Positions 2,281 to 50,827 of a DNA stretch of 64,000 nt are shown here, in pieces. A program made the translations under genes and the position numbers. The stretch lies in the IMG/VR virus record IMGVR_UViG_3300033463_000046. The stretch is one strand, 5' to 3'. The first letter of the stretch is position 1, and every line of letters starts with the position of its first letter. This DNA is from a virus (Duplodnaviria; Heunggongvirae; Uroviricota; Caudoviricetes). Under the pieces are notes generated by a model that made no database searches, was not told the origin of the DNA, and was given only the letters and a program-made list of their open reading frames with translations.

Positions 2281-2370
2281 TGGTTGGGATAGTAGGATTC
2301 GAACCCACACTTACGCCTTCAGAGGGCTACGGATTTAGAGTCCGCTGTGCTACCATTACACCATATCCCA
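2281..2370 (-). tRNA. suppressor tRNA, anticodon CTA (reads UAG); type II, about 20-nt variable arm; CCA encoded
   Basis: Reverse complement folds as acceptor tgggata/tatccca, D-stem gtgt/gcac, anticodon stem gcgga/tccgt with loop ctCTAaa, long variable arm, T-arm gtggg-ttcgaat-cctac, discriminator a, then cca. Confidence 0.8.
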
Positions 2371-8731: not shown

Positions 8732-10036
8732 ATGAAAGACAAGATTAAAGAGTTTAGAGACAAAAATCCTATATTGGATTTTGCAGCAGGCTTTATCCCA
8801 GGTGTGGGAGAAGCACAAGATGCTCATGATTTTGTACATGCTGCTAAAAAGAAAGACTTTGGAGGAATGGCATTAGCTTCTTTAGGTTTTATTATTCCAG
8901 GTGTAACTGGAGGACAATTCTTGAAGATACTTAGACCACTAACAAAAACATAGTGGGGAGCTTGGGCTGCTAAACATTTAGATGAGTTGTCTACTGTTAG
9001 ACCAAGACTTGCTGAAGGTGTTGCAAAAAATGAACCAGAAGCTGTAAAGATACATAAGACATTAGAAAAAATAGCTGATGGCAAAGTATATATTCCAGAA
9101 AAACGTGGCATTGTTAAAGATATTGACCCAGATACTCCTATTTTACCATTTGTAGATTAGAGAGGATATAACCTTACTCCTGAAGCTAGAGTAAATGCAG
9201 CTTTAGATTACGCTATAAGTACTGAAAAAGGGCGTGCTGTTCCTGGAATAATGGGAGGAGCAAAGGGAGTGCAAGGTGTAGAAGAATTAATACCAGGATT
9301 CCCAGCTTTTAAGAAAATAAATAATGTTAAAACTAGAATGGGACAATTCACTGGTGCTGACATTATTACTGCATTGTATTATAGTGGTCATGGTAAGATA
9401 AGATCTAGTAATGCTATATATGATGCTATTATGAAAGCTCCAGTATCTGGAAATGCTAAAGAATACGCCAAAGCTTAGTTAGAAGTTGTAGAAGGAATAC
9501 TATAGAAATACAGTAAAAACACTGATAAAGTTGGAGTGTTTAAAGCTACTAAATTAGCTAAGAAAGGTAGAGATAATGTTTCAGAAACAGAAAGAGCACA
9601 TTCATATGGTCTAATTCCAGATGAATTAGTTAATCCTAAAACTGATCAAGCTGTTAAAGATAGAATACATTTGGAAGAATCTTTAAACAATTTGAGTATA
9701 TGGTTTGGTTCTAAAAATGGTAATGGTGTTGCAGAATTTTATGGTCCTATTCCAATGAATTTATATTCTGGAAGTTATGGAGGAAAGAAATTTGGAGGTA
9801 GTGGTGATCATAAATTATTTGGATTTAATAATTCTATATTAGTAAAGAATTAGGATGATCTTGCAATACATATTGCTAATTCTAAAGATAAAACTATGGG
9901 ATTGGTAACTGATATTTAGGATGGTGCTGGTGTGACAAATGACGTAATATTCTAGCCATATAGGTATAGTTTAATAAGACAAAAGAAAGGTGGTCGGATT
10001 TGCCTAACTACTTCGAAGAAGCGAGGACCGTTTTAA
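8732..10036 (+). CDS. hypothetical protein carrying 8 in-frame TAG codons (amber read-through gene)
   Basis: Track ORFs 8732-8953, 9251-9478 and 9536-9853 are collinear in one frame, separated only by TAG triplets. The frame runs to TAA at 10034-10036 (1302 nt = 434 codons from 8732). The C-terminal 60 codons are less certain. Confidence 0.5.
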
Positions 10037-15960: not shown

Positions 15961-17190
15961 ATGAATGAAATTTAGAAATTTAAGCAAGGAAGAAAAGTAC
16001 TTTCTGCTAAATTCGGTGACAATTTTAAAAGAGTTGGCACAGCAAGTAATGGTTTATCTGGTATATATTTCAATCCTGACGATAATCAATTATGGAAAGG
16101 TGGATTAACTGGATATAGTAGAATAGGAGATACATATAGTTATTATTCAGGATTAGGAGGAGGTGTTATTAAAGCTTCTGACTACATTGAAAAGCCTAAG
16201 ACAGGAGTTACTACAAGAACTTCTAGTAATCCAGGTGAAATAGTAGTTAATGGTAAAAGATACGCCTCGAAAGCTGATTGGGTAAAAGAACAAAGAGCAC
16301 AAAGAGAACAACAACCATAGGAAGTAGTAATAACTGGTAGGGCTGGTAAAAGATCTGCTTCTAAAGTCACACCAAGAGGTCAGGGATATTGGGATAAACA
16401 ATACCAAGATTTCTTAGGTAAGATGACTGACGATTAGAAAGCGTGGTTAGCATAGAGAGGTATTGATTATAATTCTGCTCAACAAATGCAAACTTATTTA
16501 GCTAATCATGGTCAAGATCTTGGTAAATGGGGTGCTGATGGTAAATGGGCAGGTGCTTCCCAAGCAGCTTGGGATAATTTCGTTGCAACAACAATGAAGA
16601 ATAATCCTTTACAAACTCCTGTAAGAGATCCACAACCTACAGTTGAACCAGTAGTTGATGCTGCAGACCCATTCGGATATAAGACATCTAATCATTATGG
16701 TGATGGCTTTGCTTTAAAGAATATGGGATTCAGTAATTATGCTGGATTACAAAAATTTGCTATGGGTGATGATCAATTTGCTAAAGACTTACGTGAAAGA
16801 TTTGGTCAAGATGTAAGTCAGTGGGATCAAGCAGCTGTAGAAGGCGCATTGAATGTAAGTGGTCGTTATCGTGGTGGTAGAAGTGGCGACTTTGGTGATA
16901 TGGCTCGTAGTATGCAAGATTGGGCTGCTAAGAAAAATGCTGCATATGATCAAAAAGAATTAGCTTCTAGAACTGGTGCAAGTGGTACAACATATTCTTC
17001 TCCAGAAATGATGAAGAAATTTGAGAGTATTAAAATATCCCCAGAAGTTAAATATGGTTAGAGTACTAAGTTTGATTTTAGTAATATGAAGTTTAATTCT
17101 GGATTTGGTAATACTGGCACTAATACTCTTGGAGATGCTGGGGCAGGTACTATGAACAATCAAAAACAATTAGCATATGCGGATAAGTAA
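15961..17190 (+). CDS. peptidoglycan-binding-domain protein with in-frame TAG codons (recoded)
   Basis: One frame from ATG 15961 through track ORF 16486-17061 to TAA at 17188. In-frame TAG at codon 5 and four more. Motif MQTYLANHGQDLGKWGADGKWAGASQAAWDNFV resembles PG_binding_1. Confidence 0.5.
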
Positions 17191-18235
17191 ATTACAATAC
17201 GGAAATTCACTTTTGGAGGCAAGTAATCGACAAAGAGGAAAAGTTCAAGCTTGGGGTAATAGAGGTATTCAGCAAGTTGGTATGCAAGCTAAACAAGCTG
17301 AAGAAGAAGTTATTCAATATAAAAAAGCTACTGCTCGTGCTAATAAGAAGACAAAGACTCCTATGTAGTCAAATAACTTGGCTAAACTTCAAGACCAATT
17401 ATGGAGAATTGGAGCATTCAAAGGAGTTAAAGATAGAAGAGGAAATGAATCTACATACTAGACTGCTGTTGATGGTATCAAAGGTAATATGACCAATACT
17501 GCTATTGCTAATGCTCAGAAAATGGGTTTCACTATTAACAATGATGGTAGTCTTAGTAAGACATCTGATACATCATCAAAAGTCACAAGTACTGCTAAAA
17601 CACCAGAATAGTCTTCTAAAAAGACTAGATTTATGACATCTAGTGGTCCAATGATGCCTGCTCAAGTAATGGCACAAGCTTCAGAAGCTATTGCTAATAA
17701 CAAGACACTACAAAATACTGCAGACTTCTTAGGACATAATCCTGCTGCTATGGCTTTAGAAGATTTAGATAGAGCTACTTCAAACCGTTTAGCTGAATCA
17801 TTATTTGGTATAAGACCTTTCAAAGGTAGAACTGTTACTCGTTTACCTAATCTATAGACTGAGGAATTAAAGAAATAGGTTTTATTTGCTAGAAGTAAAG
17901 GTTAGAATAACTTTAATTCTGATATGTATAAAGCTATGTATGGTTATAATTATGCGTCTCGTAATGGAAAAGGTGGACAAGATAGAAGTGGATTTTGGAA
18001 TAGAATGGATACTCCTACGGGACGTCTTGAGCATACATTAGGTGCTTATGGTTTTTATGTAGATAATAATGGTGACACAATAGTTGAGGATACATACGAT
18101 TTTAATGTTGGACAAAAATAGGGAGGAGATGGAAGATATGCTGTAACCCGTAATTTCTTAGGAGAATTCGGAAGCAAATCTACTGATCCTAACGAGGGTA
18201 AAATCAAATATAGGATTAATTTAGGTAAATTATGA
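17177..18235 (+). CDS. peptidoglycan-binding-domain protein with multiple in-frame TAG codons (recoded)
   Basis: Track ORFs 17177-17368, 17633-17857 and 17924-18121 share one frame and are separated only by TAGs; the frame ends at TGA 18233-18235. LQDQLWRIGAFKG...DGIKGNMTNTAIANAQKMGF is PG_binding_1-like. Confidence 0.5.
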
Positions 18236-20688: not shown

Positions 20689-20714
20689 TAATTTGTGGAT
20701 TAATTCCACAAACA

Positions 20715-24596: not shown

Positions 24597-24811
24597 CAGT
24601 CAATGCGGTTAATGTAATACTTGAAAAGGCCTGGGAGATGAAGTCTCAGGCCTTAATATTTACAGACAAATTGTTTGCTATTTGGCCAAAAGACTATGAT
24701 TGGAAGGTATATGACAATTTGAAAATATTATGTATATTTGACAAAACCTCTAAAGCAGAATCATATTTGGATACAGATAGTATCAGAAAAATTGTAATAA
24801 AAGATGAGTAA
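24593..24811 (+). CDS. hypothetical small protein
   Basis: 72 aa; ATGA overlap with the upstream gene. Confidence 0.45.
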   Translation: MTVNAVNVILEKAWEMKSQALIFTDKLFAIWPKDYDWKVYDNLKILCIFDKTSKAESYLDTDSIRKIVIKDE

Positions 24812-26012
24812 CATTCATTGGTTAAAAACCAACAACACTTTTCGAAAGGTTGAAGGAGATTTCAGTACCATTGACTCAGTTCCAGTAGGTATTTATAATA
24901 TTGGATTGAGTATGACAGGTTGGTATCTGGAAAAGTACGCAGACAAATTCACTTTCGATTACAAAATGTACGGATTACAGACAGAGTTCTGTAAGCACGT
25001 ACTGAAGACTTATCACAACACTATTGGTAACTTTGGTATTATGTTAACTGGTACTAAAGGAACTGGTAAAACTGTAACAGCTAAAACTTTAGCAAATGAT
25101 TTTAATCTTCCAGTAATTATTGTCAAGGATATGGGAGATTCTAATCAAAGCATGATTGAGTTCCTGAGTGGATTCAATTTTGATTGTGTTTTATTCCTTG
25201 ACGAGTTTGAGAAGAATTTCTCTGATAAAGATTCTACTATCTTACAAATAATGGATGGTGTCTACAACATTGGTTATCGCAAGATATTCTTGTTAACAAC
25301 TAATGAGATGACAGTAAATGAGAATCTTATTGGTAGACCATCTCGTATTCGTTATGTAAAGAGATTCGGAAACTTGGACATCAAGACTGTTGAAGATTAT
25401 CTTAATGATGAACTTCAAGTTCCAGAGGCTCGTCAAGAGCTTATTGATTTCATTGATACCTTAACTATATCTACTATAGATATTCTTAAGACTATTGTCA
25501 ATGAGGTTAATATCCATGGAATGGCTGGTCTTCTTAAGGCTAAGGAATTCTTTAATGTTAGCACTCTTGAGTTTAACTATTCATGTGTTCGTGGATATGT
25601 TGAGGAAGGAGAAATGATGAATGAGCCTGACAAATATAACATGAAGAATTTCTTAAAGGATGTTGAGAAGTATGAGAATCCTATTTGGGAACCTGGTTTC
25701 TATCGTAGTACTCCGAAGGAACAGTGGACACAATCTCAACAGAAGGAATTTGATGAATGGCAAGAGAATCGTAGAAAGACCTTCAATGGTGTTCAACGTA
25801 TGAATTGTCATGCTAACTGTCGTTTTAACCATCTTAAGGTTGGAGGAGAATTTGATGGAGAAGAAATTGTGATTATTGATATTAAGAAGAATGTTGTTGT
25901 AACTCGTTATGATGACTACTTCTATTGGTATTACATTTCTAATCCTGCTAAGAAACCTTCATTATATGGTGGAGGATCAAGTGAAGACTTTGTAAGATTC
26001 TTAGACTATTAA
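24804..26012 (+). CDS. AAA+ family ATPase
   Basis: Walker A GIMLTGTKGTGKT and Walker B VLFLDEFEK. Confidence 0.7.
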   Translation: MSNIHWLKTNNTFRKVEGDFSTIDSVPVGIYNIGLSMTGWYLEKYADKFTFDYKMYGLQTEFCKHVLKTYHNTIGNFGIMLTGTKGTGKTVTAKTLANDFNLPVIIVKDMGDSNQSMIEFLSGFNFDCVLFLDEFEKNFSDKDSTILQIMDGVYNIGYRKIFLLTTNEMTVNENLIGRPSRIRYVKRFGNLDIKTVEDYLNDELQVPEARQELIDFIDTLTISTIDILKTIVNEVNIHGMAGLLKAKEFFNVSTLEFNYSCVRGYVEEGEMMNEPDKYNMKNFLKDVEKYENPIWEPGFYRSTPKEQWTQSQQKEFDEWQENRRKTFNGVQRMNCHANCRFNHLKVGGEFDGEEIVIIDIKKNVVVTRYDDYFYWYYISNPAKKPSLYGGGSSEDFVRFLDY

Positions 26013-27511: not shown

Positions 27512-28600
27512 ATGACATTACAAGAAGAGAACGAAAAACTTAGAGAAAAACTAAGTGAGTATGAAGATTTACTGCTAAAAATGATGGAAGGACCGTATTC
27601 AAGTGGTACGATCATTTCAAAAACTGCTCTTAGTATGTATAGAGTAGCAACAGATGCAGGCACAGAAGTAATTATTACTGCACATCCTGAGATTAAAAGG
27701 AGTGACCTCAAAGAAGGGTGCAGAGTAATTATTAACACTAAGATGATTACAAATGTTCTTCCTGTAGAATTAGAAAAGACACCAGAAGAAGTTAAATTTG
27801 ATTTTATTGATTGGAGTCAAATTGCTGGTGTTAGGTCGCAGGTTGAACGAATTAAAGAAGCTGTCAATGCTCCATTACTATTCGGAAAGTATTACAAAGA
27901 ATATGGATTATCTCCATGTAAAGGTATTCTTTTGTATGGACCTCCGGGTTGTGGTAAAACTCTTATTGCAAGAGCAATTGCTACTAACTTCTTAAGAGGT
28001 AAGAACATTACTAAAGATTCTTTCATTTATATGAAAGGAGGAGAAATGTTAAGTCCATATGTAGGTGTTGCTGAAAATAATATTAAATCAGTGTTTACAA
28101 GGGCGAGACGTAATTTTGAGAAGAGTGGTAATAAGTCTGTTATCTTTATTGATGAAGCTGAAGCATTATTACCTGCAAGAGGTTCACGCAGAAGTTCAGA
28201 TGTAGAGACAACAATTGTTCCAACTTTCCTTTCTGAGATGGATGGATTTGAAGACAGCAGTACCTTTGTTATACTAGCAACTAATTACCCAGGACAAATT
28301 GATCCAGCTGTAATAAGACCAGGTAGAATTGATCTCCGAATAGAGATTGGTAGGCCTAATGTCGAGGATGCAGAAGAAATATTTGATCTTTATTTAAATA
28401 AAACCAAATGTGGAACTAACAAGTTAGCTCAGATGGCTGCTAAAAGACTATTTAAGTCTGATGTGGCTAAGAATGTATCAGGAGCACTTATTAAGAATGT
28501 TGTGGATAGAGCCACATTATCAGCAGTTAAACGTGCTGTAAATGGTGACAATAGTGGAGTAAACGAGAAAGACATAATCGTAGCAATAGAAGAGTTATGA
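27512..28600 (+). CDS. AAA ATPase (classical AAA domain, CDC48/FtsH-like)
   Basis: GILLYGPPGCGKTLIARAIA, Walker B VIFIDEAEAL, second region ATNYPGQIDPAVIRPGRIDLRIEIGRPN. Confidence 0.8.
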   Translation: MTLQEENEKLREKLSEYEDLLLKMMEGPYSSGTIISKTALSMYRVATDAGTEVIITAHPEIKRSDLKEGCRVIINTKMITNVLPVELEKTPEEVKFDFIDWSQIAGVRSQVERIKEAVNAPLLFGKYYKEYGLSPCKGILLYGPPGCGKTLIARAIATNFLRGKNITKDSFIYMKGGEMLSPYVGVAENNIKSVFTRARRNFEKSGNKSVIFIDEAEALLPARGSRRSSDVETTIVPTFLSEMDGFEDSSTFVILATNYPGQIDPAVIRPGRIDLRIEIGRPNVEDAEEIFDLYLNKTKCGTNKLAQMAAKRLFKSDVAKNVSGALIKNVVDRATLSAVKRAVNGDNSGVNEKDIIVAIEEL

Positions 28601-28863
28601 AGCAAGACAAATTAAAAGCAGCTACACTTCAGCAAACTAGAGAGGAAGATCTTAAATCCGAGTTTGAAGCAATTAAAAACAAGGATGTTGAGAAAGCAAC
28701 AACTAAGATTGTTAATATTAAAATCAGAGTAGGATGTGGCTGTGGAGGTTCTTATGACAGATATCATGTAGAAGTTCCAATTGATTCTGAAATTGAAGAC
28801 GGAGACTACTTTGATGGCTTTGAAGATTGGATGGATAATATTGAGGATGGATGGGTTTATTAG
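28597..28863 (+). CDS. hypothetical protein with CxC-rich segment
   Basis: 88 aa; ATGA overlap with the upstream gene. Confidence 0.45.
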   Translation: MKQDKLKAATLQQTREEDLKSEFEAIKNKDVEKATTKIVNIKIRVGCGCGGSYDRYHVEVPIDSEIEDGDYFDGFEDWMDNIEDGWVY

Positions 28864-29225
28864 AGTATTTAATATTGGTGGCATTATGTGCTGCTAGTAT
28901 TAGTTACACTATCAGCTACACCTCAATATTTCTTGGTTTTAGAGAATGGATTTCAAAGTTCCATCATAAGTTAGAAGAACTTATCCATTGTCCTTATTGT
29001 TTGAGTCATTACATAATACTTACAATAATGTTTACTACTAAGGATATTAGTAGTAAATTAGTACCAATAACAGATTTTATTATATATAATTTCTTATTTA
29101 CTTGGTTTTGTATTGTATGTATTACTAGTCTTTTACACTGCATAATGCTTATAGCATATCGTCCTATTATGCAATATATGGCTGATAGGAAAATTGCTAA
29201 AATCAAATTTAAAAAGGGGAAATAA
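28851..29225 (+). CDS. membrane protein
   Basis: 124 aa with multiple TM segments. Confidence 0.5.
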   Translation: MGLLEYLILVALCAASISYTISYTSIFLGFREWISKFHHKLEELIHCPYCLSHYIILTIMFTTKDISSKLVPITDFIIYNFLFTWFCIVCITSLLHCIMLIAYRPIMQYMADRKIAKIKFKKGK

Positions 29226-31016: not shown

Positions 31017-32990
31017 ATGACATTGACAACAATGATTATCGCGGCAGTTATTGTACTGCTTGTGATTTTAACAATTATCGGACTCTTGTCTCGTTATCGC
31101 AAGTGTCCAAGTGACCAACTCTTAGTTGTGTTTGGTAAAGTGGGTGGAAAATCTGCTGCCAAGATATATCCTGGAGGTGGTGTGTTTGTATGGCCTGTCA
31201 TTCAGGACTACAAAGTTATGTCGATGAAACCATTTCAGATTAACTCGGAAGTAGTTGGTCCTGATAGTGGTATGATTCAGACTCATGTGAAGGTAGCTTT
31301 AACTACTGCAATCTCTCAAGATCCCACTATTCAGCAAAATGCTGCTGCTCGTTTCTTAAGTGCTGACAAACAAGAAATTCAGAAACAGATTCAAACCATT
31401 CTTGAAGGTGAAGTAAGATTAATTATTGCTTCATTGTCAATTGAGGAGATTAACTCCAATCGAGATGCCTTTAAGACTAAGGTTAAAGATAGTCTTGGTA
31501 CTGAACTTGCTAAGGTTGGTTATGATATAACTAATATTAACATTCAGGAAATCACTGATGAACAAGACTACATTAAAAATCTATCTAAGAAGAAGGAAAC
31601 GGAGGCAAGAGCTAATGCTGAGGCTGATATTGCTGACAAGGAAAAAGATGGAGCTATTAGAAAAGCTAAGATTAGACAAGAGCAGGAAATCCAAGTAGCA
31701 ACTGCTGATAAGGAAAGAGAGACTACAGTTTCTCAAACTAAGCAGGAGCAGGCTGTAAGAGTAGCAGAAATTGAGAAAGAACAGGAAACTCAGATTGCCG
31801 AAACTCAGAAGGCAAAGGAAGTACAGCTTTCCGAAATTGAGAAGGAGAAGCAGACTGGTATCGCTAACCAGAAGGCTCTTCAGACTGCTGCTGTAGCAAA
31901 TGCTGATGCAGATGCTGAATCTAAGAAAGCAGAGGCTGATGCTCGTAAGGTTGCAGCTGTTGCTGAACAGAAGGCAAAGGCTGAATCTTCTAAGGCAGAA
32001 TCTGAAGCAACTCAGCGTAAAGCTGTAGCCGCTGCTCAGGCAGATGCTGAAGCTACTGAGAACGAGAAGGAAGCTTTAAAGCAGACTCGTATTGCTGAAG
32101 CTAATCAGAAGAAGGAAGCTGATATTGCTAAGGCAACTCAGGAGAAGGAAGCAAAGAAAGCTGAGTATGAGTCACAGAAGCAGATTCGTAAGGCTAAGGC
32201 TGACCAGGATGCAGGTGTAGCTGAGCAGAATGCAAAGATTCTTGTTGCTGAGGCTCGTGCGAAGGCTGGTCAGGCAGAAGCTGATGCTGACAAGACTGTC
32301 CAGGTTGCTAAGATTGAAGCTGATATGAAGGCTGCTAAGACTAAGCAAGAACGTCAGTTAGAGGTTAACGAGGCTGAAGCCAAGGCAGTTGAAGCTAAGT
32401 TAAATGCTGAGCAGGTTGTTCCAGCCGAGCAGTCTAAGAAGAAGACTATCATCGAAGCAGAAGCTATTAAAGAGAAGGCAATTCTCGAAGCTGAAGCAGA
32501 GAAACAGCGTATTCTTAAGAAGGCTGAAGCCGATTCTGAGGAAATCAAACTGAAGAAGTTAGCAGAAGCTGAGGGTACAAAGCAGATTAAGCTGGCTGAA
32601 GCTGAGGGTCAGAAGGCTCTGTGGTTTGCAGAGGCAGAGGCTCTTCAGAAGAAGGAAATGGCTCCTGCACTTGCTCTGGAGAAGATGGTACAGTCATTCG
32701 GTGGTAACCCAGATCTTCTTGTTCAATACAAGATGGTTGACCAGTATAAGGGTATTGCTGAAGCTTCTGAGAAGATGCTTGAGCATATTCAGCTTGGTAA
32801 TGTCACTGTTTATGGTGACGCTACAACTGGTGCGAAGTTTGCTAAGAGCTTTATTGAGATGTTCACTCCTGGTCTTGACATCGTTCAGAATGGTTTCAAA
32901 GACAAGTTTAAGGAAGTGTTCGGTCTTGATAAGAAGTCTGAAGAACTTCCCGAAGAGAAAACTGACGAAAACTTCGAGGAGGTTAAGTAA
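31017..32990 (+). CDS. flotillin-like SPFH/band-7 protein with long E/A/K coiled-coil
   Basis: 657 aa. N-terminal TM IIAAVIVLLVILTIIGLL, SPFH block LLVVFGKVGG...GPDSGMIQTHVKVALT, then about 300 aa of EA-rich heptad repeats. Confidence 0.75.
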   Translation: MTLTTMIIAAVIVLLVILTIIGLLSRYRKCPSDQLLVVFGKVGGKSAAKIYPGGGVFVWPVIQDYKVMSMKPFQINSEVVGPDSGMIQTHVKVALTTAISQDPTIQQNAAARFLSADKQEIQKQIQTILEGEVRLIIASLSIEEINSNRDAFKTKVKDSLGTELAKVGYDITNINIQEITDEQDYIKNLSKKKETEARANAEADIADKEKDGAIRKAKIRQEQEIQVATADKERETTVSQTKQEQAVRVAEIEKEQETQIAETQKAKEVQLSEIEKEKQTGIANQKALQTAAVANADADAESKKAEADARKVAAVAEQKAKAESSKAESEATQRKAVAAAQADAEATENEKEALKQTRIAEANQKKEADIAKATQEKEAKKAEYESQKQIRKAKADQDAGVAEQNAKILVAEARAKAGQAEADADKTVQVAKIEADMKAAKTKQERQLEVNEAEAKAVEAKLNAEQVVPAEQSKKKTIIEAEAIKEKAILEAEAEKQRILKKAEADSEEIKLKKLAEAEGTKQIKLAEAEGQKALWFAEAEALQKKEMAPALALEKMVQSFGGNPDLLVQYKMVDQYKGIAEASEKMLEHIQLGNVTVYGDATTGAKFAKSFIEMFTPGLDIVQNGFKDKFKEVFGLDKKSEELPEEKTDENFEEVK

Positions 32991-34293: not shown

Positions 34294-34560
34294 GAAATGC
34301 TTTAGAAAGGACATTGCCGTCTTTTTAAAGTATTTTAACTTTGACATTAGGCAAGATGTCAGTAGTTTATCGTAGCACAGCTGAGGAATTGCAAACCTTG
34401 GTAATACTGCTATATCGTGCGGGTCTAGGCACACCACACATACCTAAGTGGTTAAATAAATGGGAAAAGCCTGGCTGGAGCTTTGTATGTTGTAGTCAGG
34501 TGCAATGGAGGAGTGGGAGAGTGGTTTATTCCAGCTGTCTTGAAAATTTATAATCTAATT

Positions 34561-35007
34561 ATGAATCCTTGGTCATCTAATTACAAATCGCATCAAGGGA
34601 ATGTAGGATTAGGTAGAGCTATAGCATACTATACAGCTCAATGTGTACCTGTCTTACTCCCACTAAATGATACTTAGAAGTATGATTTAGCAGTCGATAA
34701 AGATGGTAAGTTACAAAGAGTATCTGTAAAGACAACTCAAGGAAAGAATAAAACAGGAACTTATTATACTGTTCAATTAAAGAATAGTGGAGGAGCCTCT
34801 GGAAAGTCTGTTATAAGACATTTCGATAATAGTTCTTGTGATATTTTATTCATTGTAACTGTAGAAGGAACTATGTATGAAATACCTTCCTCTTTAATAA
34901 ATGTTAGTGCTCAACTAACTTTAACTGAAGATTGGGATGATTATATAGTCACATTAGATTGGGGTACGAGTGCTCCTGAGGAAACTCAGGAAGTAGAAGC
35001 AGGCTAA
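34561..35007 (+). CDS. PD-(D/E)XK-type nuclease-like protein with one in-frame TAG (recoded)
   Basis: MNPWSSNYKSHQGNVGLGRAIAYYTAQCVPVLLPLNDT-TAG-KYDLAVDKDGKLQRVSVKTTQGK... The frame reads through TAG at 34675-34677 to TAA at 35005. The G-x-G...YDL...VxVK pattern is typical of Hjc/Mrr-like nucleases. Confidence 0.5.
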
Positions 35008-35377
35008 TTCGGTGAAGGTTATAGCCCTATAAATATAAATAACGCCGAGCTAAATTAAGAGAACTATCGAGATTGGTAGGGATAGTACTGAAGTAGGGTA
35101 CCGATAAGCATGGGTCACAAAACCCTGAATATGTCGCAATCTATCCTATAGTTCTCTTATAAATGTGTACAGACTATACACCTGCAACCTAAACACTTTA
35201 TGTGCATGGTTAAGACATAGTCGGTCTGTTCGTAAGAACAGAGGAAAACAGCCGACCGCTAACACCGGTCCGTCGGTTCGAATCCGGCCTCCTCCGCTAT
35301 CCGAGGTTGAGGTACATACTCGATTTGTACTGTAATTGGAGGTGGTTCCTTAATAGTTTAAGGGTGTAGGATTGATT

Positions 35378-35495
35378 GGTGATATAAGACGGTATGTTGG
35401 TTAACCGAACCCTGTAGGAGGGCATAGTAGGATGTAAGCACCGTTACTTACTTAATAATACTACTATTACGAAGGTTCAATTCCTTCTATCACCA
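35378..35495 (+). tRNA. atypical 118-nt tRNA-like locus (perfect acceptor halves ggtgata/tatcacc, canonical T-arm)
   Basis: T-arm gaagg-ttcaatt-ccttc. The intervening about 85 nt contains hairpin gtaag-caccgtta-cttac but no standard D or anticodon arms. Confidence 0.3.
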
Positions 35496-35500
35496 CCTTC

Positions 35501-35865: not shown

Positions 35866-36102
35866 ATGGAGGTAAATAATCGAATTGTAGAAATTCTTAA
35901 AGACAAATTGATGGTTGATGAAATCAGCTCTGATGATAATTTAATAATTGATCTGAAAGCAGATAGTCTTGACATAATCGAGTTAGTCATGGAATTAGAA
36001 CATGAATTTGATATTGTTATCTTAGACGAAGAAGTAGATCCTAACTTTGATAGTGTAGGTCATTTAATAGATTTCATACAAACCAAAGTAAATAACAAAT
36101 AA
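35866..36102 (+). CDS. acpP: acyl carrier protein
   Basis: 78 aa, acidic, with motif DLKADSLDIIELVMELEHEFDIVILDEE containing the phosphopantetheine-attachment DSL. Confidence 0.75.
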   Translation: MEVNNRIVEILKDKLMVDEISSDDNLIIDLKADSLDIIELVMELEHEFDIVILDEEVDPNFDSVGHLIDFIQTKVNNK

Positions 36103-36209
36103 TGGAAAATATAATTAATATTAACGAACCTTGTATTCAAGATCTTATAATCCAGAAAGGAGAATAGGATTTATGTCTTACGACAAAAGATGGTCAAATT
36201 GAGTATAAA

Positions 36210-38168
36210 TTGTTTTTAGGTGACAAAGATTCGGTGATGTTAACTCTCAACTTTGGAGATGTCTCCAGTATAGGTTGGGGTGGTACAGATAACTGGGGTA
36301 AAGATAAGCTTCCTCTATACTTAGAAAGTAATAAAGGTGCTGAGAATTATGACAGTGTATTTGTTGATAATATCACTATTCAGGAGTATGCCGGAGAAGG
36401 AAATTGGTGTAAATGCGAACTTATAAATAAAGGTAAAACGGTTCATTACGTGGCTGTAAACGAAAATCGATTGGATAAGGAACGCGTAGCATATTTCTGG
36501 CATACTACTACTGACTCTGTAGTTAATAATGGATTTAATAAAGGAAAACCAGTTGCAAAGAAATGGTGTGTGACTGTTATTCAAAATCCAGGAAAAGCAC
36601 AAGAATAGCCAAAAGAAGAAGAAAAGAAAGTTGATCTCGGAAAATATCTTTATTCAGTAGGATTATTATCGGATTTACATATTTGTAAAGCTAATAATAA
36701 TGATTCGTTAAACTGGTGGGATGAAGATGACTTTAAGAGAGCAATGAATTTATATGTAAATGATAAAAATATTAAGTTTATTGCATCTTGTGGTGATATT
36801 TCCGAAGCACAAACTAATGATAATATTAAACACCCAGAATCAACAGCAGAAACTGATTATGCTGAGTTTACAGAAATGTATGATGTACCTTATTGGCAAG
36901 TAGCAGGATTAAGATTCTTTAGTCCATTAGGTAATCATGATTTCTATGGAATGTTTGAAGGTAGACAAGGAGACACAATAACTAAAAAGAAAAACTCAGA
37001 AACTATAAACGGTTACAATGCTGGAGTAAAAGAACGTATAGGTAATTGGATTACAGGACAACAAATAAATGGAATTGTTCCAGGTAGAGGAAGAATTCAA
37101 TTTGAACTTGAGAATGGTAAGAGTACTGCAAATGGTCAAGCAGATATGAGATTCTTCTCATATAACGATTATGTAGACTTGTACGCAAAAGAAAATGGTT
37201 ATACAGGTTCAATATGGGATTCTTCTAAAGGTGGAATATCTGACAAAGCAATCGAAACTGCAAAGAAATATGTCAATAGTAATTGGAATAAAGTAAAAGA
37301 CAATTTAACTATGTGGAATGATGGCGGAGGTCACGGTCGTAATGGTTATTCTAAATTAAACTATTGGATGAAAAAAGACAATGATATTTACATATTCTTA
37401 TCAGTAGATTATGGCGATGATATATGGGGCATTAAAAGTGGTTGGCATGATAGAATGATTCATGCAAGAACTATTATTAATCTTAATGAAGATGATCCAT
37501 ATGTCAAGAGAATGAAAGAGTATGTTGGAGATACTGGTTATTCAAAAGCTGATGAAGCTTATAACTATCAGTATTATAGTCCTAACACTCTTATATGGTT
37601 GAAGGAACTTCTTGAGAATAATAAGGATAAGAAGATTTACATCTTCACTCATCACTTTATGCCTAATCGTGTTGGTAATGGTGTTGGACTTGCTAAAGAT
37701 GGAAATTGGTATTACTCTGTAATCAATCCTGATGGAGTAAAAGAGAATGGTTATAATAAGGGATCTAATGCATTAACTGGTATTGAGTTCTGGTTTATTG
37801 ATAAGCTTATGAATCAATATAATAATGTGATATGGTTCAGTGGTCATTCTCATATAAGTTTTGCATCTGGTGCTAACTTTGATAATCATGATTACTCTAT
37901 AGTAAATCCATCTGAGAAAAGTGAATATGTATATACTAAGAGTAATACAATTCCAACTAAAGAATCAGCATGGTGTGTAGCACTTCCATCACTTTCTAAA
38001 CCAAGAGGTATTGATAATGGTCAATCAGTAAGACATTATGAAGATGCTGAAATGGGTATTATGGAAGTATATGAGAAAGGTGTTAAGATAAAAGGATATA
38101 AAATCCGAGAAAATAACAAAGATGTCAACGAGTTACTTGTTGAAAAAGAAATTCAATTAATCAATTAA
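36210..38168 (+). CDS. calcineurin-like metallophosphoesterase with N-terminal extension; one in-frame TAG (recoded)
   Basis: Track ORFs 36210-36608 and 36744-38168 are in the same frame (534 nt apart), joined through TAG 36606-36608. The connecting segment encodes GLLSDLHI (motif I). Downstream: GNHDF and GHSH motifs. Confidence 0.6.
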
Positions 38169-38943: not shown

Positions 38944-39015
38944 GATCGTATAGCTCAATGATAGAGCAGCGGTCCTCAAAACCGAAGGTTTAGGGTTTGA
39001 ATCCCTATACGATCA
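38944..39015 (+). tRNA. tRNA with anticodon loop ccTCAaa (anticodon UCA, reads UGA/UGG); candidate opal suppressor or Trp-UCA
   Basis: Acceptor gatcgta/tacgatc, D gctc-aatgata-gagc, anticodon stem cggt/accg (4 bp), T-arm taggg-tttgaat-cccta. Position 33 is C. Confidence 0.6.
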
Positions 39016-39094
39016 CTCCCCACTGTGAAGTGGCATCTCCTTTCATTAAAAACAAATGTCACTAAATTTCTCGGGACTCAGAGGAGTCCCACTT

Positions 39095-42551: not shown

Positions 42552-43367
42552 ATGGGTGGTGGTAGTTACGATCCGATAGCGTCTCGTAGTAGATCTACGA
42601 CGTATTATCAAAATAGGTCTCGAGAAGAAGTATTCTCTCAGCGTCATATGGATCCTTTAATGAATCCGAAGGGTGTAGCATATCGTGAAGCCCGTGACTC
42701 TGAAGAACATCCAGAATCGTTCCCAATTATTATTGCTCTCGATGAGACTGGTAGTATGGGACGTATTCCCGAAATTATTATCAAGAAGATTCTTCCTGAC
42801 ATTATGGAATCCATAATGAATGCAGGAGTTAAGGATCCTCAAGTAATGTTTATGGGAATTGGAGACTGTGCTAACTATGAAGAGGCTCCTCTTCAAGTTG
42901 GTCAGTTTGAAAGTTCCGACGAACTTATAGAAAAGTGGCTTACTAAAGTCTACTTGGAACATAAGGGAGGCGGAAACGGTTTCGAGTCCTATCCTCTAGC
43001 ATGGTATTTTGCTGCTCACCATATCGTTACAGATTCGTGGGAAAAGAGACAGCAGAAAGGTGTTCTTATCACTATTGGTGATGAGAGTTATCAGCAACGT
43101 CTCTTAGCAGAACAGATTACACGCTATATTGGCGACACCCCCGAAGTCGATATAGTTGCGTCTGAACTGCTTGAACGTGTTCGTGAACAGTGGAATGTAT
43201 TCCATATCCATTGTAATGGTGGCAGCTACCGTGCTTCTGAAACTAAATGGGAGAAACTCCTCGGTCCAAATCTCGTTGTCTCCGTAGATAATGATGGTAT
43301 GGATATTAAGGATATTATCCCTCGTATTGTAGTTGGTTGTTATCGTAAACCAGAAGATGATGCGTAA
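42552..43367 (+). CDS. von Willebrand factor A (vWA) domain protein
   Basis: MIDAS-like IIIALDETGSMG (D-x-S-x-S) followed by a Rossmann-like fold pattern. Confidence 0.65.
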   Translation: MGGGSYDPIASRSRSTTYYQNRSREEVFSQRHMDPLMNPKGVAYREARDSEEHPESFPIIIALDETGSMGRIPEIIIKKILPDIMESIMNAGVKDPQVMFMGIGDCANYEEAPLQVGQFESSDELIEKWLTKVYLEHKGGGNGFESYPLAWYFAAHHIVTDSWEKRQQKGVLITIGDESYQQRLLAEQITRYIGDTPEVDIVASELLERVREQWNVFHIHCNGGSYRASETKWEKLLGPNLVVSVDNDGMDIKDIIPRIVVGCYRKPEDDA

Positions 43368-44487
43368 AACTCAAATAGTACTGGGAGCCCTTTTCGGAGA
43401 CGAAGGAAAGGGTTCCACAGTACAGTTTCTTTGTAAAGAACAATTAAGAAAAGGAATTACACCTTTAGTTATAAGGTTTAGTGGAGGACCACAAGCAGGA
43501 CATCGTGTAATGTATAATGGTATTGATCACGTATGTTCTCTTTTAGGTTCAGGTGTTCTATTGGGCTGTCCTACATATCTTGATAAAGATGTTATGATTG
43601 ATCCAATTTCTCTAATGAAAGAAGTGCAATCTCTTCAACAATTCGGAATAAACCCAGACATATACGTTCATCCATATTGCCGAGTTATTTTCCCTGATGA
43701 TATTATAAAGAATCAGAGTAATAAAAAGACAATACAGGATGGTACTTGTGGTTGTGGCATATTTGAATGTTTTGATAGAAATCGTAAAAATCCAGATATA
43801 CTTAGATGTATTGCTAGTGCAACTGTAGCTCCTGAGGATTATGTAGATCTTTATGGAGTTAAACACAATAGAGAGCAGTTTATTGAAGCGTGTAAATGGA
43901 TGGATAACTATTGTCATATTCGTATGCTAGAAGAATTGGCAGAGATGCATAGTTCTCTAATATTTGAAGGAAGTCAAGGATTATTACTTGATATGGAAGG
44001 TGGTTTTATGCCTAATTGTACTCCTAGTATGGTTGGCTTAAATGGAGTAAGAGAAGAATTTCTTGAAAATGCTGAAGTTTTCTTAGTAATGAGAAGTTAT
44101 CTTACTCGACATGGTAATGGTTATGATCCTGTTGGTGAATCATTTGTACGAAAGTATTTTACAAACTTAGAAGAACCTACAAATTTGAATGATGGTCCAC
44201 AAGGACAATTCAAACTTGGTGTCCTTGATTTAGATCTAGTAATTCGCTCTTTTGACCGAAATCGTTTGGACAATTATAAAAGAATGTATAATATTGAATA
44301 CAACGCAGTGATAACACACATGGATTGTAGTCCATATCCGACTATTATTCCTGCATTCTTCAATTATAGTAAAATTGATTATATTGATATTGATAAAGCA
44401 ATGCAATATTGTTTTAGGCACATATCTCTTAAAAATACTTACTTAGGACTAGGTCCTGAGTCTGAAATCGTCCTCTTCAATAGATAA
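43357..44487 (+). CDS. adenylosuccinate synthetase family protein (PurA/PurZ-like)
   Basis: LGALFGDEGKGSTVQF (PurA P-loop GDEGKGK-like), FSGGPQAGHRV (GG-N-AGH block), FEGSQGLLLDMEGG (FEGAQG block). Starts at ATG 43357, overlapping the vWA stop. Confidence 0.65.
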   Translation: MMRKTQIVLGALFGDEGKGSTVQFLCKEQLRKGITPLVIRFSGGPQAGHRVMYNGIDHVCSLLGSGVLLGCPTYLDKDVMIDPISLMKEVQSLQQFGINPDIYVHPYCRVIFPDDIIKNQSNKKTIQDGTCGCGIFECFDRNRKNPDILRCIASATVAPEDYVDLYGVKHNREQFIEACKWMDNYCHIRMLEELAEMHSSLIFEGSQGLLLDMEGGFMPNCTPSMVGLNGVREEFLENAEVFLVMRSYLTRHGNGYDPVGESFVRKYFTNLEEPTNLNDGPQGQFKLGVLDLDLVIRSFDRNRLDNYKRMYNIEYNAVITHMDCSPYPTIIPAFFNYSKIDYIDIDKAMQYCFRHISLKNTYLGLGPESEIVLFNR

Positions 44488-48787: not shown

Positions 48788-49369
48788 GGTCTTCCTATTA
48801 AATGGGGCTGACAGGATTAGACGGATAATGAAGGTAATAAGAACATGCAAAGGCTGTATGGAAAGACATACAAATCAATTAAATGGCAAGAACAATGTTT
48901 CTTTCGCCATCACAAGCTACAGAGTAGCTGCGTGAGGCGTGGGGTCGTGATTAACCCTATCATCCAATAATCACAAAGTCTACGATTCTCAGTGTCTCCG
49001 ACTATAAACACAGCAACTGAGTGGTGGCAGGTGCGACTTCGGTCAATCCCCCAGTCATTGCCTAAGACTTTAAAAAAGGCACTGGTGAAGAAAACACTCC
49101 AAATTGAAAAGCATGTACAATTCTTATAGAATAGTTGTTGCGGACGGCGGTTCGATTCCGCCCAGTTCCACTCCTGTGATCTGACGGAGCATGCGGTCAC
49201 TAAAAGGCATGCGTCAATTCTCACTTAGACTCAAGAAGTGATAGGTTGTACAACTGAAGGGAATGAATTTTTTGCAGGTAAGGAAACCGCCATCTCAAGT
49301 TTTCTAATCTATAAATCATAAAACTAGAGAAAAGGGTAAGTAGGTGTACGGGACACCTACGTAAATATA

Positions 49370-50708: not shown

Positions 50709-50780
50709 CTGGCCCTTTGTGTAATGGTTAGCACACGGGACTTTGACTCCCGTAGTACAGGTTCGAATCCTGTAGGGCCA
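50709..50780 (+). tRNA. tRNA-Gln (TTG)
   Basis: Acceptor tggccct/agggcca (U1-A72), D gtgt-aatggtta-gcac, anticodon arm cggga-ctTTGac-tcccg, T-arm acagg-ttcgaat-cctgt. Confidence 0.85.
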
Positions 50781-50827
50781 ACGTTCTGTTTGAACATAGG
50801 TTTTAAGTTTTTAGTTATTTATTTGCG

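What the first reader, a model, noticed from the sequence alone, without database searches (positions are those of the whole stretch)
36210..38168. Metallophosphoesterase split by a single TAG; motif I lies across the apparent intergenic gap
The two track ORFs are in-frame across TAG 36606-36608. The connecting segment encodes GLLSDLHI, the first metal-binding motif. It only exists if translation proceeds through TAG into the downstream ORF, which holds GNHDF and GHSH. This gives independent support for amber read-through.
Basis: seen in the sequence. Interest (0 to 1): 0.55.

Follow-up and report, generated by a model that had tools for sequence, protein, structure and literature searches.

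The report
Phage phosphoesterase gene read through TAG
The two "ORFs" are one 688-codon phage metallophosphoesterase gene containing two in-frame TAG codons that this gut phage evidently reads as an amino acid (most likely glutamine), a correct call but an example of an already described phage genetic-code change.

Summary
TAG 36606-36608 joins ORF 36210-36608 in frame to ORF 36744-38168. GLLSDLHI (36660-36683, the DxH metal motif) lies between that TAG and the first ATG. No ATG, GTG, TTG, CTG or ATN codon precedes the motif's Asp and His.

It also has a second in-frame TAG at 36165-36167.

Evidence for one translated gene:
- DNA-verified, TAG-free relatives (64-74% identical) are continuous across both sites.
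- The two closest relatives keep both TAGs. They carry four more where the window has CAG, CAA, CAG and AAA.
- dN/dS is 0.13-0.17 in every segment.
- Four other window genes contain in-frame TAGs. In one, a Pfam domain spans the TAG.
- A Gln-like tRNA(CUA) lies at 2281-2370.

PF00149 does not span the TAG. It starts 17 codons after it and 29 codons before the Met.

This is genome-wide TAG-to-Gln reassignment (code 15), already described for crAss-like and Lak gut phages, not gene-specific read-through. The protein combines an Ig-like beta-sandwich, a linker and a phosphodiesterase-like domain, and belongs to an uncharacterised huge-phage family. Interest is low to moderate.

The parts
36102..38168 (+). 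One gene of 688 sense codons plus a TAA stop. It encodes an N-terminal beta-sandwich, a linker and a metallophosphoesterase. ATG 36102 overlaps the TAA stop of the upstream ACP gene (TAATG).
   Evidence: Translation. The N-terminus MENIININEPCIQD matches the homologue N-termini MDNVININEPCIQD. Homologues of 680-700 aa cover 99-100% of the query. dN/dS is 0.085-0.17 in all four segments.
36165..36167 (+).
   Evidence: TAG is also at this position in L001 and L002. TAG-free relatives have ACN, TCN or GTN codons (T, S or V) here.
36168..36605 (+). N-terminal Ig-like, possibly BACON-like, beta-sandwich domain (residues 23-168).
   Evidence: AlphaFold2 model, pLDDT 87.6, all-beta. Weak Foldseek matches to Ig-like or BACON-type domains of Bacteroides glycoside hydrolases, 3zmr and 2mw1, with TM about 0.4.
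36606..36608 (+). In-frame TAG no. 2 (codon 169), the TAG of the finding. It lies in the charged or P/T/E-rich inter-domain linker.
   Evidence: It is conserved as TAG in L001 and L002. It aligns to a variable linker in the homologues.
36609..36743 (+). The 'intergenic gap' of the standard-code annotation. It encodes the linker, beta-strand 1 and motif I of the phosphoesterase.
   Evidence: dN/dS is 0.15-0.17 against L001 and L002. Residues 11-20 have pLDDT 98 and strand E13-19 falls here. No usable start codon precedes D191 and H193.
36660..36683 (+). Motif I, GLLSDLHI. D191 and H193 are metal ligands.
   Evidence: D22 and H24 (post-TAG numbering) are invariant in 44 homologues. The Pfam PF00149 alignment starts at V186.
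36789..36797 (+). Motif II, CGD (G231, D232).
   Evidence: Invariant G62 and D63.
36930..36944 (+). Motif III, GNHDF (residues 277-281).
   Evidence: Invariant G108, N109, H110 and D111.
37650..37655 (+). Motif IV histidines, H517 and H518.
   Evidence: Invariant H348 and H349.
37842..37853 (+). Motif V/VI, GHSH (residues 581-584).
   Evidence: Invariant G412, H413, S414 and H415.
2281..2370 (-). Amber-suppressor tRNA with anticodon CUA, 90 nt. It is Gln-like (U1:A72, A73, D-arm matching the phage tRNA-Gln(UUG) apart from a one-base shorter D-loop) and has an extra insert of about 17 nt in the variable region.
   Evidence: ARAGORN. Rfam tRNA, 64.2 bits. Fold and comparison with the other tRNAs of the window. 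The family is conserved in four other viral contigs, with covarying acceptor and extra-arm stems.
35866..36102 (+). Acyl carrier protein gene immediately upstream, with stop and start overlapping. It contains no TAG.
   Evidence: phrog_5934, acyl carrier protein, E 1.8e-12. A PP-binding gene sits at the same position in L001.
34561..35007 (+). Neighbouring PD-(D/E)XK endonuclease gene with an in-frame TAG at 34675 (codon 39). This is an independent case of a translated TAG.
   Evidence: The Pfam PF11645 alignment covers residues 12-118 (46.3 bits) and so spans the TAG.
8732..10036 (+). Gene with 7 in-frame TAGs.
   Evidence: Coding potential on both sides of the TAGs.
15961..17190 (+). Gene with 5 in-frame TAGs.
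17177..18235 (+). Gene with 7 in-frame TAGs.

Best explanation
Positions 36102-38168 are a single intact gene of a large, tRNA-rich gut phage that uses TAG as a sense codon in a subset of its genes. This is genetic code 15, TAG = Gln.

Proposed mechanism:
1. A ribosome starting at ATG 36102 meets UAG at codons 22 and 169.
2. If only the host's release factor 1 acts, translation ends after 21 residues and no enzyme is made.
3. Once the phage's own tRNA(CUA) (2281-2370) is expressed, both UAGs are decoded, most likely as glutamine. The tRNA is presumably charged by the host glutaminyl-tRNA synthetase.
4. The result is a 688-residue protein. It has an N-terminal Ig-like beta-sandwich, a short charged linker containing the second UAG, and a 519-residue calcineurin-like metallophosphoesterase.
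5. The first beta-strand and the DxH metal motif of that enzyme are encoded upstream of the first canonical start codon.

Shown here: the frame, continuity in homologues, purifying selection across both TAGs, invariance of all metal motifs, the fold, the presence of a suppressor tRNA, and TAG use in other genes.

Inferred: Gln as the inserted residue, the charging enzyme, late-stage timing, and the substrate. The best guess for function is a phosphodiesterase of the GpdQ / purple-acid-phosphatase / Rv0805 type, possibly virion-associated.
For: One frame and no alternative start:
- The segments are in frame, and no start codon lies between TAG2 and D191/H193.

Homologues:
- 238 homologues were found. 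Many of 680-700 aa cover 99-100% of the query.
- DNA-verified TAG-free relatives (L003, L008-L012; 64-74% identical) have uninterrupted ORFs with sense codons at both sites.
- The closest relatives come from two other assemblies (L001 and L002; 84-85% identical). They keep TAG at both sites and have four extra in-frame TAGs aligned to the window's CAG, AAA, CAA and CAG.
- dN/dS is 0.13-0.17 before TAG1, between the TAGs and in the 'gap', and 0.085-0.10 downstream.

Enzyme identity:
- All metallophosphoesterase motifs are invariant in 44 homologues.
- The PF00149 hit appears only when the post-TAG segment is included.
- The AlphaFold2 model has pLDDT 86.7 and pTM 0.91, with beta-strand 1 at post-TAG residues 13-19.
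- Foldseek's best matches are GpdQ, purple acid phosphatases and Rv0805.

Window-wide recoding:
- In-frame stops with coding potential on both sides number 16 for TAG, 2 for TAA and 0 for TGA.
- Eight of the 11 confident ORFs that 'end' in TAG are internal pieces of bridged genes. The other three have a TAA or TGA 0-4 codons downstream.
- The PDDEXK_5 Pfam domain spans TAG 34675.

Suppressor tRNA and Gln identity:
- The tRNA(CUA) scores 64.2 bits in Rfam, and its nearest relative in the window is tRNA-Gln(UUG).
- Across the family's DNA loci, conserved TAG columns are dominated by real Gln codons. One column has Q in 25 of 32 sequences against a background Q frequency of 2.3%.

Literature:
- Code 15 with a tRNA(CUA), patchy TAG use and clustered tRNAs is described for Lak megaphages (PMC6784885).
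- It is described for many gut phage clades (bioRxiv 10.1101/2021.08.26.457843).
- It has been confirmed by proteomics in crAss-like phages (PMC9523058).
Against: - There is no protein-level evidence for this phage.
- The two TAGs of this gene sit at variable positions (T, S or V in homologues at site 1; a linker at site 2). They do not themselves identify the inserted residue.
- The tRNA(CUA) has an unusual insert of about 17 nt in the variable region. Its charging by GlnRS is therefore an assumption.
- No RF2, GlnRS or other code-switch gene was found among the window ORFs scanned.
- Pfam gave no hit on the 652-aa recoded protein submitted first, so HMM support is marginal and depends on the input.
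- The TAG-rich genes have no annotation, so 'late or structural' timing is taken from the literature and not shown here.
Confidence: 0.9

Rival explanations
1. Decaying or split gene. The TAGs are genuine nonsense mutations, and only fragments are made: a 146-residue N-terminal piece and a 474-residue piece lacking motif I.
For: Under the standard code the gene is split. The ATG-36744 ORF is long and open. Database gene callers produced such truncated models for relatives (P0040, P0043, P0061, P0108).
Against: - dN/dS is 0.13-0.17 in every segment, including the 45-codon gap. Gaps against the relatives are rare (at most 1 in the gap, 5 downstream).
- The same two TAGs, plus four more at Gln or Lys positions, occur in two independent assemblies.
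- The truncated product would lack beta-strand 1 and the invariant D and H of motif I.
- Four other genes in the window show the same pattern.
Confidence: 0.03
2. Two separate genes. An N-terminal-domain protein ends at TAG 36606, and an independent phosphoesterase starts at a non-canonical start codon inside the gap.
For: The family is modular. Some homologues have only 20-35 residues ahead of the linker, and P0100 starts 8 residues before motif I.
Against: - No ATG, GTG, TTG, CTG or ATN codon lies between the TAG and D191/H193. The first is ATT 36681, after the motif.
- Every complete homologue with this N-terminal domain is a single ORF.
- TAG1 would still interrupt the upstream protein at codon 22.
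Confidence: 0.02
3. Gene-specific programmed read-through. TAG 36606 is a leaky stop placed at a domain boundary, so that two isoforms are made, as with the Q-beta A1 protein or retroviral gag-pol: the beta-sandwich alone and the fusion with the enzyme.
For: TAG2 sits exactly in the inter-domain linker and is conserved in the three closest sequences.
Against: - TAG1 at codon 22 would block both isoforms unless it too is decoded.
- L001 and L002 carry further TAGs inside both domains.
- TAGs occur 5-7 times per gene elsewhere in the window.
- A dedicated suppressor tRNA is encoded.
- No read-through signal was looked for beyond this.
Confidence: 0.05
4. TAG is decoded, but not as glutamine. Candidates are pyrrolysine (ARAGORN's label) or Ser, Leu or Tyr, as the long extra arm of the tRNA(CUA) might suggest.
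For: - ARAGORN labels the tRNA 'Pyl'.
- The tRNA is 90 nt, with a conserved insert of about 17 nt in the variable region that resembles a type II tRNA.
- Several TAG columns in the family align to T, N, R or P.
- A published isotype prediction for phage suppressor tRNAs found about 30% non-Gln (PMC10879173).
Against: - The tRNA lacks tRNA-Pyl architecture. It has a normal 7-nt D-loop, a 5-bp anticodon stem and two bases between the acceptor and D stems.
- No pyl genes were found among the scanned ORFs.
- U1:A72 and A73 are conserved in all five family members and shared with the phage's own tRNA-Gln. The D-arm also matches it apart from a one-base shorter D-loop.
- At conserved positions, TAG aligns to real CAA or CAG codons. 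In close relatives three of four swaps are to CAR. One column has Q in 25 of 32 sequences.
Confidence: 0.07

Closest known systems
Genetic code 15 (TAG to Gln) in gut phages: Lak megaphages, crAss-like phages and the Garnet, Amethyst, Sapphire and Agate clades (PMC6784885; bioRxiv 10.1101/2021.08.26.457843; PMC9523058)
   Same: - In-frame TAGs fragment genes under code 11.
- TAG is used only in some gene blocks and is absent from others.
- The phage encodes a tRNA(CUA).
- Many tRNAs are clustered in one region.
- TAG aligns with Gln in homologues.
- The helicase is related to those of phages of Bacteroidota, so the host probably uses the standard code.
   Different: - The window has 37% G+C against about 26% for the published Lak genomes.
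- No DNA or protein match for this gene exists in the INPHARED phage collection.
- No RF2 was seen in the window.
- The suppressor tRNA carries an extra arm.
- Lineage membership is not established.
Calcineurin-like metallophosphoesterases of the GpdQ / purple acid phosphatase / Rv0805 type (PF00149; PDB 3d03, 1ute, 3ib7)
   Same: - All six metal-binding motifs are present (DxH, GD, GNHD, H, GH, GHxH).
- The Pfam score is above the cut-off.
- The predicted core fold matches, with Foldseek probability 1.00 and target TM-score 0.55-0.60.
   Different: - Sequence identity to the solved structures is only 7-10%.
- About 235 residues of insertions lie between motifs III and IV.
- A C-terminal beta-rich extension is present.
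- An N-terminal Ig-like domain is joined through a linker.
- No PHROG family and no PDB sequence match were found.
- The substrate is unknown.
supE-type amber suppressors (tRNA-Gln with CUA anticodon)
   Same: - CUA anticodon on a tRNA-Gln-like body with U1:A72, G10 and U35.
- The D-arm matches the phage tRNA-Gln(UUG) apart from a one-base shorter D-loop.
   Different: - It is 88-90 nt long, with a conserved insert of about 17 nt in the variable region that forms a short, covarying stem.
- The discriminator base is A73.
Programmed stop-codon read-through (Q-beta A1 coat extension, MuLV gag-pol)
   Same: A UAG separates two protein modules, and the downstream module is made only if the UAG is decoded.
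   Different: - Here several UAGs occur per gene and in several genes.
- A dedicated suppressor tRNA is encoded.
- UAG swaps with Gln codons in relatives.
- This is reassignment, not a local leaky stop.

Membership tests
Calcineurin-like metallophosphoesterase superfamily (Pfam PF00149) | Score at or above the Pfam gathering threshold | tested here: met
   31.3 bits (cut-off 21.5) for the post-TAG 519 aa. 23.2 bits for the recoded N-terminal 320 aa. No hit for the ATG-36744 ORF alone or for the 652-aa recoded protein. PF00149 is also precomputed for many homologues.
Calcineurin-like metallophosphoesterase superfamily (Pfam PF00149) | Conserved metal-ligand motifs DxH, GD, GNH[DE], H, GH and GHxH | tested here: met
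   D22, H24, G62, D63, G108, N109, H110, D111, H348, H349, G412, H413, S414 and H415 are invariant in 44 sequences.
Calcineurin-like metallophosphoesterase superfamily (Pfam PF00149) | Two-sheet beta-sandwich core flanked by helices (the metallophosphoesterase fold; description from general knowledge) | tested here: met
   AlphaFold2 model, pLDDT 86.7 and pTM 0.91. Foldseek matches to GpdQ, purple acid phosphatases, Rv0805 and Mre11 have probability 0.96-1.00.
Calcineurin-like metallophosphoesterase superfamily (Pfam PF00149) | Metal-dependent phosphoester hydrolysis | not testable with these tools
   Needs an enzyme assay of the recoded (TAG to CAG) protein.
Phage genetic code 15 (TAG to Gln) | In-frame TAGs inside conserved genes that are under purifying selection | tested here: met
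Phage genetic code 15 (TAG to Gln) | TAG positions align with Gln in homologues that lack the TAG | tested here: met
   In close relatives, three of four swaps are to CAG or CAA. Conserved TAG columns have Q in 25 of 32, 9 of 20 and 8 of 20 sequences, against a background of 2.3%. The two TAGs of this gene lie at variable positions and are not informative themselves.
Phage genetic code 15 (TAG to Gln) | A phage-encoded suppressor tRNA with anticodon CUA | tested here: met
   Window 2281-2370, minus strand. Found by ARAGORN and by Rfam at 64.2 bits.
Phage genetic code 15 (TAG to Gln) | TAG is not used as the sole terminator of genes | tested here: met
   Of 61 confident plus-strand ORFs, only three truly end at TAG. 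Each has a TAA or TGA 0, 2 or 4 codons downstream.
Phage genetic code 15 (TAG to Gln) | Peptides with Gln at TAG positions | not testable with these tools
   Needs proteomics, as was done for crAss-like phages in PMC9523058.
Lak megaphages ('Grandevirales') | Genome of 476-660 kb with about 26% G+C | tested here: not met
   The window has 37.1% G+C against 25.8-26.7% for the published Lak genomes. Genome size cannot be judged from 64 kb. A 67%-identical homologue occurs on a contig of up to 467 kb.
Lak megaphages ('Grandevirales') | Sequence relatedness to published Lak genomes | tested here: inconclusive
   The gene has no blastn or tblastn match in the INPHARED collection. Whether that collection holds Lak genomes was not checked. 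The helicase matches unannotated faecal phage contigs and, distantly, crAss-like and Flavobacterium phages.
Pyrrolysine decoding of UAG | tRNA-Pyl architecture: a very small D-loop, a 6-bp anticodon stem, a 3-nt variable loop and one base between the acceptor and D stems (features recalled from general knowledge) | tested here: not met
   The tRNA has a 7-nt D-loop, a 5-bp anticodon stem, two bases between the acceptor and D stems, and a variable region of about 20 nt.
Pyrrolysine decoding of UAG | pylS and pylBCD genes | tested here: inconclusive
   None were found among the roughly 50 window ORFs scanned with Pfam. The rest of the genome was not seen.

The most novel reading that the evidence does not exclude
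The amber suppressor of this phage belongs to a conserved family of 88-90-nt tRNA(CUA) genes found in at least five unrelated viral contigs. These tRNAs have a Gln-like body plus a covarying extra arm. If the arm changes which synthetase charges the tRNA, or serves as a processing or regulatory handle that times suppression, then two things would follow. UAG in these phages might not simply mean Gln. The two UAGs in this gene, one at codon 22 and one exactly at the domain boundary, would be deliberate translational gates and not neutral Gln codons.
Probability: 0.1. Interest if true: 0.6.

Novelty: new member of a known kind. Interest (0 to 1): 0.25.

Why it matters
- Practical: the gene must be annotated with code 15. 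Standard-code calling splits it into two bogus proteins and removes the catalytic DxH motif. Public databases already hold such truncated models of relatives (P0040, P0043, P0061, P0108).
- Evidence: together with the neighbouring PD-(D/E)XK gene, it is clean internal evidence that this tRNA-rich phage reads TAG as sense in only some genes. That fits the published idea that recoding gates late gene expression.
- Biology: the protein family (Ig-like domain, linker, and a phosphodiesterase with large insertions) appears restricted to large gut phages and is uncharacterised. It is a reasonable candidate for a virion-borne or host-modifying phosphodiesterase.
- Limit: none of this changes current understanding of phage recoding.

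Tried and rejected
Searches that found nothing:
- blastn and tblastn of the gene against 50,697 GenBank phage records gave no match.
- PHROGs has no family for either domain, nor for the three TAG-rich genes.
- A PDB sequence search gave no match.
- Pfam on the 652-aa recoded protein gave no hit, although sub-sequences did. I took this as a filter or bias effect, not as evidence against the domain.
- The search for related loci for two other TAG-rich genes found no relatives in IMG/VR. TAG-to-residue statistics therefore rest on the phosphoesterase family alone.
- No RF2, aaRS or pyl genes were found among the scanned window ORFs.

Ideas considered and rejected:
- Independent non-canonical initiation: no start codon is available.
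- Pseudogene: excluded by dN/dS.
- Assembly error: the same TAGs occur in two other assemblies.
- Pyrrolysine: the tRNA architecture does not fit.
- TGA recoding: no in-frame TGA has coding potential on both sides, despite a tRNA(UCA) in the window.

Ideas left untested:
- A functional link to the upstream ACP gene, for example an ACP phosphodiesterase. The pairing is seen only in the closest relative (L001) and not at the P0036 locus.

Caveat on database proteins:
- Q residues in P0001 and P0002 come from code-15 gene calling and are circular evidence. I used only codons read from the DNA.
Full report
**What is at the coordinates**

- ORF 36210-36608 ends in TAG 36606-36608. ORF 36744-38168 is in the same frame, 45 codons downstream.
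- The intervening segment reads PKEEEKKVDLGKYLYSVGLLSDLHICKANNNDSLNWWDEDDFKRA.
- GLLSDLHI is encoded at 36660-36683. GNHDF (36930-36944) and GHSH (37842-37853) lie downstream.
- Listing every codon between the TAG and ATG 36744 shows that the only ATG, GTG, TTG, CTG or ATN codon is ATT 36681. It lies after the Asp and His of the motif. No independent initiation could therefore produce a protein that contains motif I.
- By chance alone, a stop-free 45-codon gap in the same frame has a probability of about 0.038 x 1/3 on this strand.

- In the same frame, an ATG at 36102 overlaps the TAA stop of the upstream gene (TAATG).
- That ATG opens MENIININEPCIQDLIIQKGE, followed by a second in-frame TAG at 36165-36167 and then DLCLTTKDGQIEYKLFLGDK….
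- The 'TTG 36210' start is therefore an artefact of ORF listing. The gene is 36102-38168, with 688 sense codons and TAG at codons 22 and 169.
- The upstream gene (35866-36102) is an acyl carrier protein (phrog_5934, E 1.8e-12).

**Homologues show one continuous protein**

- A search with the 688-residue translation, with X at both TAGs, found 238 homologues. Many are 680-700 residues long and cover 99-100% of the query.
- They share the N-terminus (MDN(V/I)…IN(I/E)…PCIQD) and run without interruption through both sites.
- Database proteins can be translated with code 15, so I checked DNA directly.
- P0001 and P0002 (84-85% identical; loci L002 and L001; two different assemblies) do not translate with table 11.
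- Their DNA has TAG at the same two positions. It has four further in-frame TAGs that align with CAG (36381), AAA (36429), CAA (36582) and CAG (37569) of the window.
- More distant relatives fetched as DNA (L003, L008-L012; 64-74% identical) have no TAG in the gene. They have T or V at site 1 and a P/T/E-rich linker at site 2.
- Several database entries begin just after motif I (P0040 'MCKANNYEST…', P0043, P0061, P0108). These are evidently standard-code truncations of relatives, the same artefact as in this window.

**Selection**

- Codon alignments of the window gene with L001 and L002 give dN/dS of 0.16 before TAG1, 0.13-0.15 between the TAGs, 0.15-0.17 in the 45-codon 'gap' and 0.085-0.10 downstream.
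- Alignment gaps are rare, at most one in the 'gap' segment and five downstream.
- All four segments are therefore translated in this frame. This excludes a pseudogene and excludes an untranslated spacer.

- Pfam Metallophos (PF00149) hits the post-TAG 519 residues at residues 17-134 (profile positions 3-98; 31.3 bits against a cut-off of 21.5).
- It hits the recoded N-terminal 320 residues at 186-294 (23.2 bits).
- It does not hit the ATG-36744 ORF alone. It also did not hit the 652-residue recoded protein I submitted first.
- The alignment therefore starts 17 codons after the TAG and 29 codons before Met215.
The TAG lies in the linker in front of the domain.
- In an alignment of 44 family members, the following are invariant (post-TAG numbering): D22, H24, G62, D63, G108, N109, H110, D111, H348, H349, G412, H413, S414 and H415.

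**Structure**

- An AlphaFold2 model of the 519-residue module has pLDDT 86.7 and pTM 0.91. Residues 13-19 (YLYSVGL) form the first core strand, with pLDDT about 98.
- Foldseek against the PDB finds the glycerophosphodiesterase GpdQ, purple acid phosphatases, Rv0805 and, more weakly, 5'-nucleotidase and Mre11. Sequence identity is 7-10%.
- The domain has large insertions between motifs III and IV and a beta-rich C-terminal extension.
- Residues 23-168 model as an all-beta sandwich with pLDDT 87.6. Matches to Ig-like or BACON-type domains of Bacteroides enzymes are weak.
- There is no PHROG family, no PDB sequence match and no hit in GenBank phages.
- A search of 1.8 billion cluster representatives gave only 283 hits, many of them multi-domain proteins.

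**Is TAG reassigned throughout the window?**

- Using codon usage trained on long standard ORFs, I counted in-frame stops with coding potential and no other stop in the 40 codons on either side. There are 16 TAGs, 2 TAAs and 0 TGAs.
- With TAG read as sense, three further genes emerge: 8732-10036 (7 TAGs), 15961-17190 (5 TAGs) and 17177-18235 (7 TAGs).
- A fourth gene, 34561-35007, has one TAG at codon 39. The Pfam PDDEXK_5 domain aligns to residues 12-118, across that TAG (46.3 bits).
- Of 61 confident plus-strand ORFs, 11 end in TAG under the standard code. Eight of these are internal pieces of the bridged genes. The other three have a TAA or TGA 0, 2 or 4 codons further on.
- Most genes of the window contain no TAG at all.

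**The decoding apparatus**

- The window holds 34-35 tRNA genes and a tmRNA.
- One tRNA, at 2281-2370 on the minus strand, has anticodon CUA (Rfam 64.2 bits).
- ARAGORN's 'Pyl' label reflects only the anticodon. The tRNA has an ordinary D-arm, a 5-bp anticodon stem and an encoded CCA end.
- Its closest relative among the window's tRNAs is tRNA-Gln(UUG) at 50710-50782. The two share U1:A72, A73 and the D-arm apart from a one-base shorter D-loop. The CUA tRNA carries an extra insert of about 17 nt in the variable region.
- The same 88-90-nt tRNA(CUA) occurs in four other IMG/VR contigs. Their acceptor stems covary, and there is one compensatory change in the extra stem. It is a real, conserved gene family.

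**Which amino acid?**

- I translated 33 DNA loci of the phosphoesterase family with TAG marked separately. Internal TAG columns that are conserved are dominated by genuine Gln codons: Q in 25 of 32, 9 of 20 and 8 of 20 sequences, against a background Q frequency of 2.3%. Variable columns show mixed residues.
- Among the closest relatives, three of four TAG swaps are to CAG or CAA.
- With the Gln-like tRNA, this makes Gln the best-supported reading.
- Some more distant relatives appear to end the gene with TAG. The reassignment is therefore lineage-specific.

**Context and comparison with what is known**

- The window's DnaB-like helicase is 74.5% identical to one on an unannotated human-faecal phage contig. 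It is distantly related to helicases of crAss-like, Bacteroides and Flavobacterium phages.
- A 67%-identical, TAG-free homologue of the phosphoesterase lies among DnaK, DnaJ, HSP20 and TROVE genes and occurs on contigs of up to 467 kb.
- The picture matches what is published. Lak megaphages use code 15, show TAG in some regions only, have about 30-35 tRNAs concentrated in specific regions, and carry several suppressor tRNAs, including one with CUA (PMC6784885).
- Recoding is widespread in gut phages that infect standard-code hosts, and is proposed to delay expression of late genes (bioRxiv 10.1101/2021.08.26.457843).
- TAG = Gln has been confirmed by proteomics in crAss-like phages (PMC9523058).
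- I do not file this phage as a Lak phage. Its G+C content is 37% against about 26%, and I found no sequence link to published genomes.

**Mechanism, with steps marked**

Shown:
- one gene and one frame
- two UAGs
- all segments under purifying selection
- catalytic motif I upstream of any start codon
- a suppressor tRNA encoded in cis
- other genes that use UAG as sense

Inferred:
- Before the phage tRNA(CUA) accumulates, host RF1 stops translation at codon 22. Afterwards both UAGs are read as Gln and the 688-residue enzyme is made.
- The tRNA is charged by host GlnRS.
- The protein is a late, possibly virion-associated phosphodiesterase. This rests on its fold relatives, its Ig-like N-terminal domain and the lack of an obviously hydrophobic, signal-peptide-like N-terminus (by eye; no predictor was run).
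- The TAG-rich neighbouring genes have no annotation. The 'late gene' label is therefore borrowed from the literature.

**Verdict**

The phenomenon is already known. This is a new example in an undescribed gene family and phage lineage, which makes it useful for annotation but not surprising.

Noticed in passing
window 2281-2370 (-); L038 2321-2409, L039 103-192, L040 5232-5319, L041 681-768: The amber-suppressor tRNA(CUA) is 88-90 nt long. It has a Gln-like body plus a conserved insert of about 17 nt in the variable region. Five viral contigs share it, with covarying acceptor stems and one compensatory change in the extra stem. L040 also has an ordinary 73-nt tRNA(CUA).
   Followed up: partly
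window 34507-35297 (+): A type II tRNA, probably tRNA-Ser(UGA), appears to be split by a group I intron of about 700 nt. The 5' exon starts at 34507 and the 3' exon ends near 35297. Rfam Intron_gpI matches 34929-35242 at 46 bits (gathering score 50, E 1.5e-8). The intron carries the PD-(D/E)XK endonuclease ORF 34561-35007, which itself contains in-frame TAG 34675. The exact splice sites were not determined.
   Followed up: partly
window 11244-11761 (+): A full-length but sub-threshold match to GOLLD RNA (RF02032; 54 bits against a gathering score of 150; E 2.7e-11). It encloses a tRNA called Asn(ATT) at 11334-11407.
   Followed up: no
window 38944-39016 (+): A tRNA with anticodon UCA (an opal suppressor, labelled SeC by ARAGORN), with C instead of U at position 33. 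It lies 0.8 kb downstream of the gene. No in-frame TGA in the window has coding potential on both sides, so TGA does not appear to be recoded here.
   Followed up: partly
window 48804-49173 (+): A phage-encoded tmRNA (Rfam 73.3 bits; tag peptide GKNNVSFAITSYRVAA) lies within the tRNA-rich region. In total the 64 kb hold 34-35 tRNA genes.
   Followed up: no
window 20686-20691, 28861-28872, 53465-53482 (+): The only three genes that truly end at TAG have a TAA or TGA 0, 2 or 4 codons downstream. They terminate at almost the same place whether or not TAG is read through.
   Followed up: partly
window 14833-14924 (+) and 35379-35498 (+): Two odd tRNA-like elements. The first is a 92-nt 'tRNA-Ala(GGC)' called by ARAGORN but not by Rfam, whose fold suggests a different anticodon arm plus an insertion. 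The second is a 120-nt stretch with matching acceptor strands (GGTGATA…TATCACC-ACC) and a T-arm, called by neither tool. Both may be intron-containing tRNAs.
   Followed up: no
window 24804-26012, 27512-28600, 31017-32990, 43333-44487, 10111-10692, 54937-55416, 58316-59590, 60489-61577: Recognisable TAG-free genes in the window:
- two AAA ATPases
- a 657-residue SPFH/Band 7 (flotillin-like) protein
- an adenylosuccinate synthetase
- a DUF6939 protein with weak similarity to a NADAR antitoxin
- RNase H
- a ResIII/DEAD helicase
- a DnaB-like helicase
   Followed up: partly
L014, L017, L020, L021, L025, L026, L028-L030, L032: In many more distant relatives, the phosphoesterase gene appears to terminate with TAG itself. 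Within this one gene family, some phage lineages therefore use TAG as stop and others as sense.
   Followed up: no
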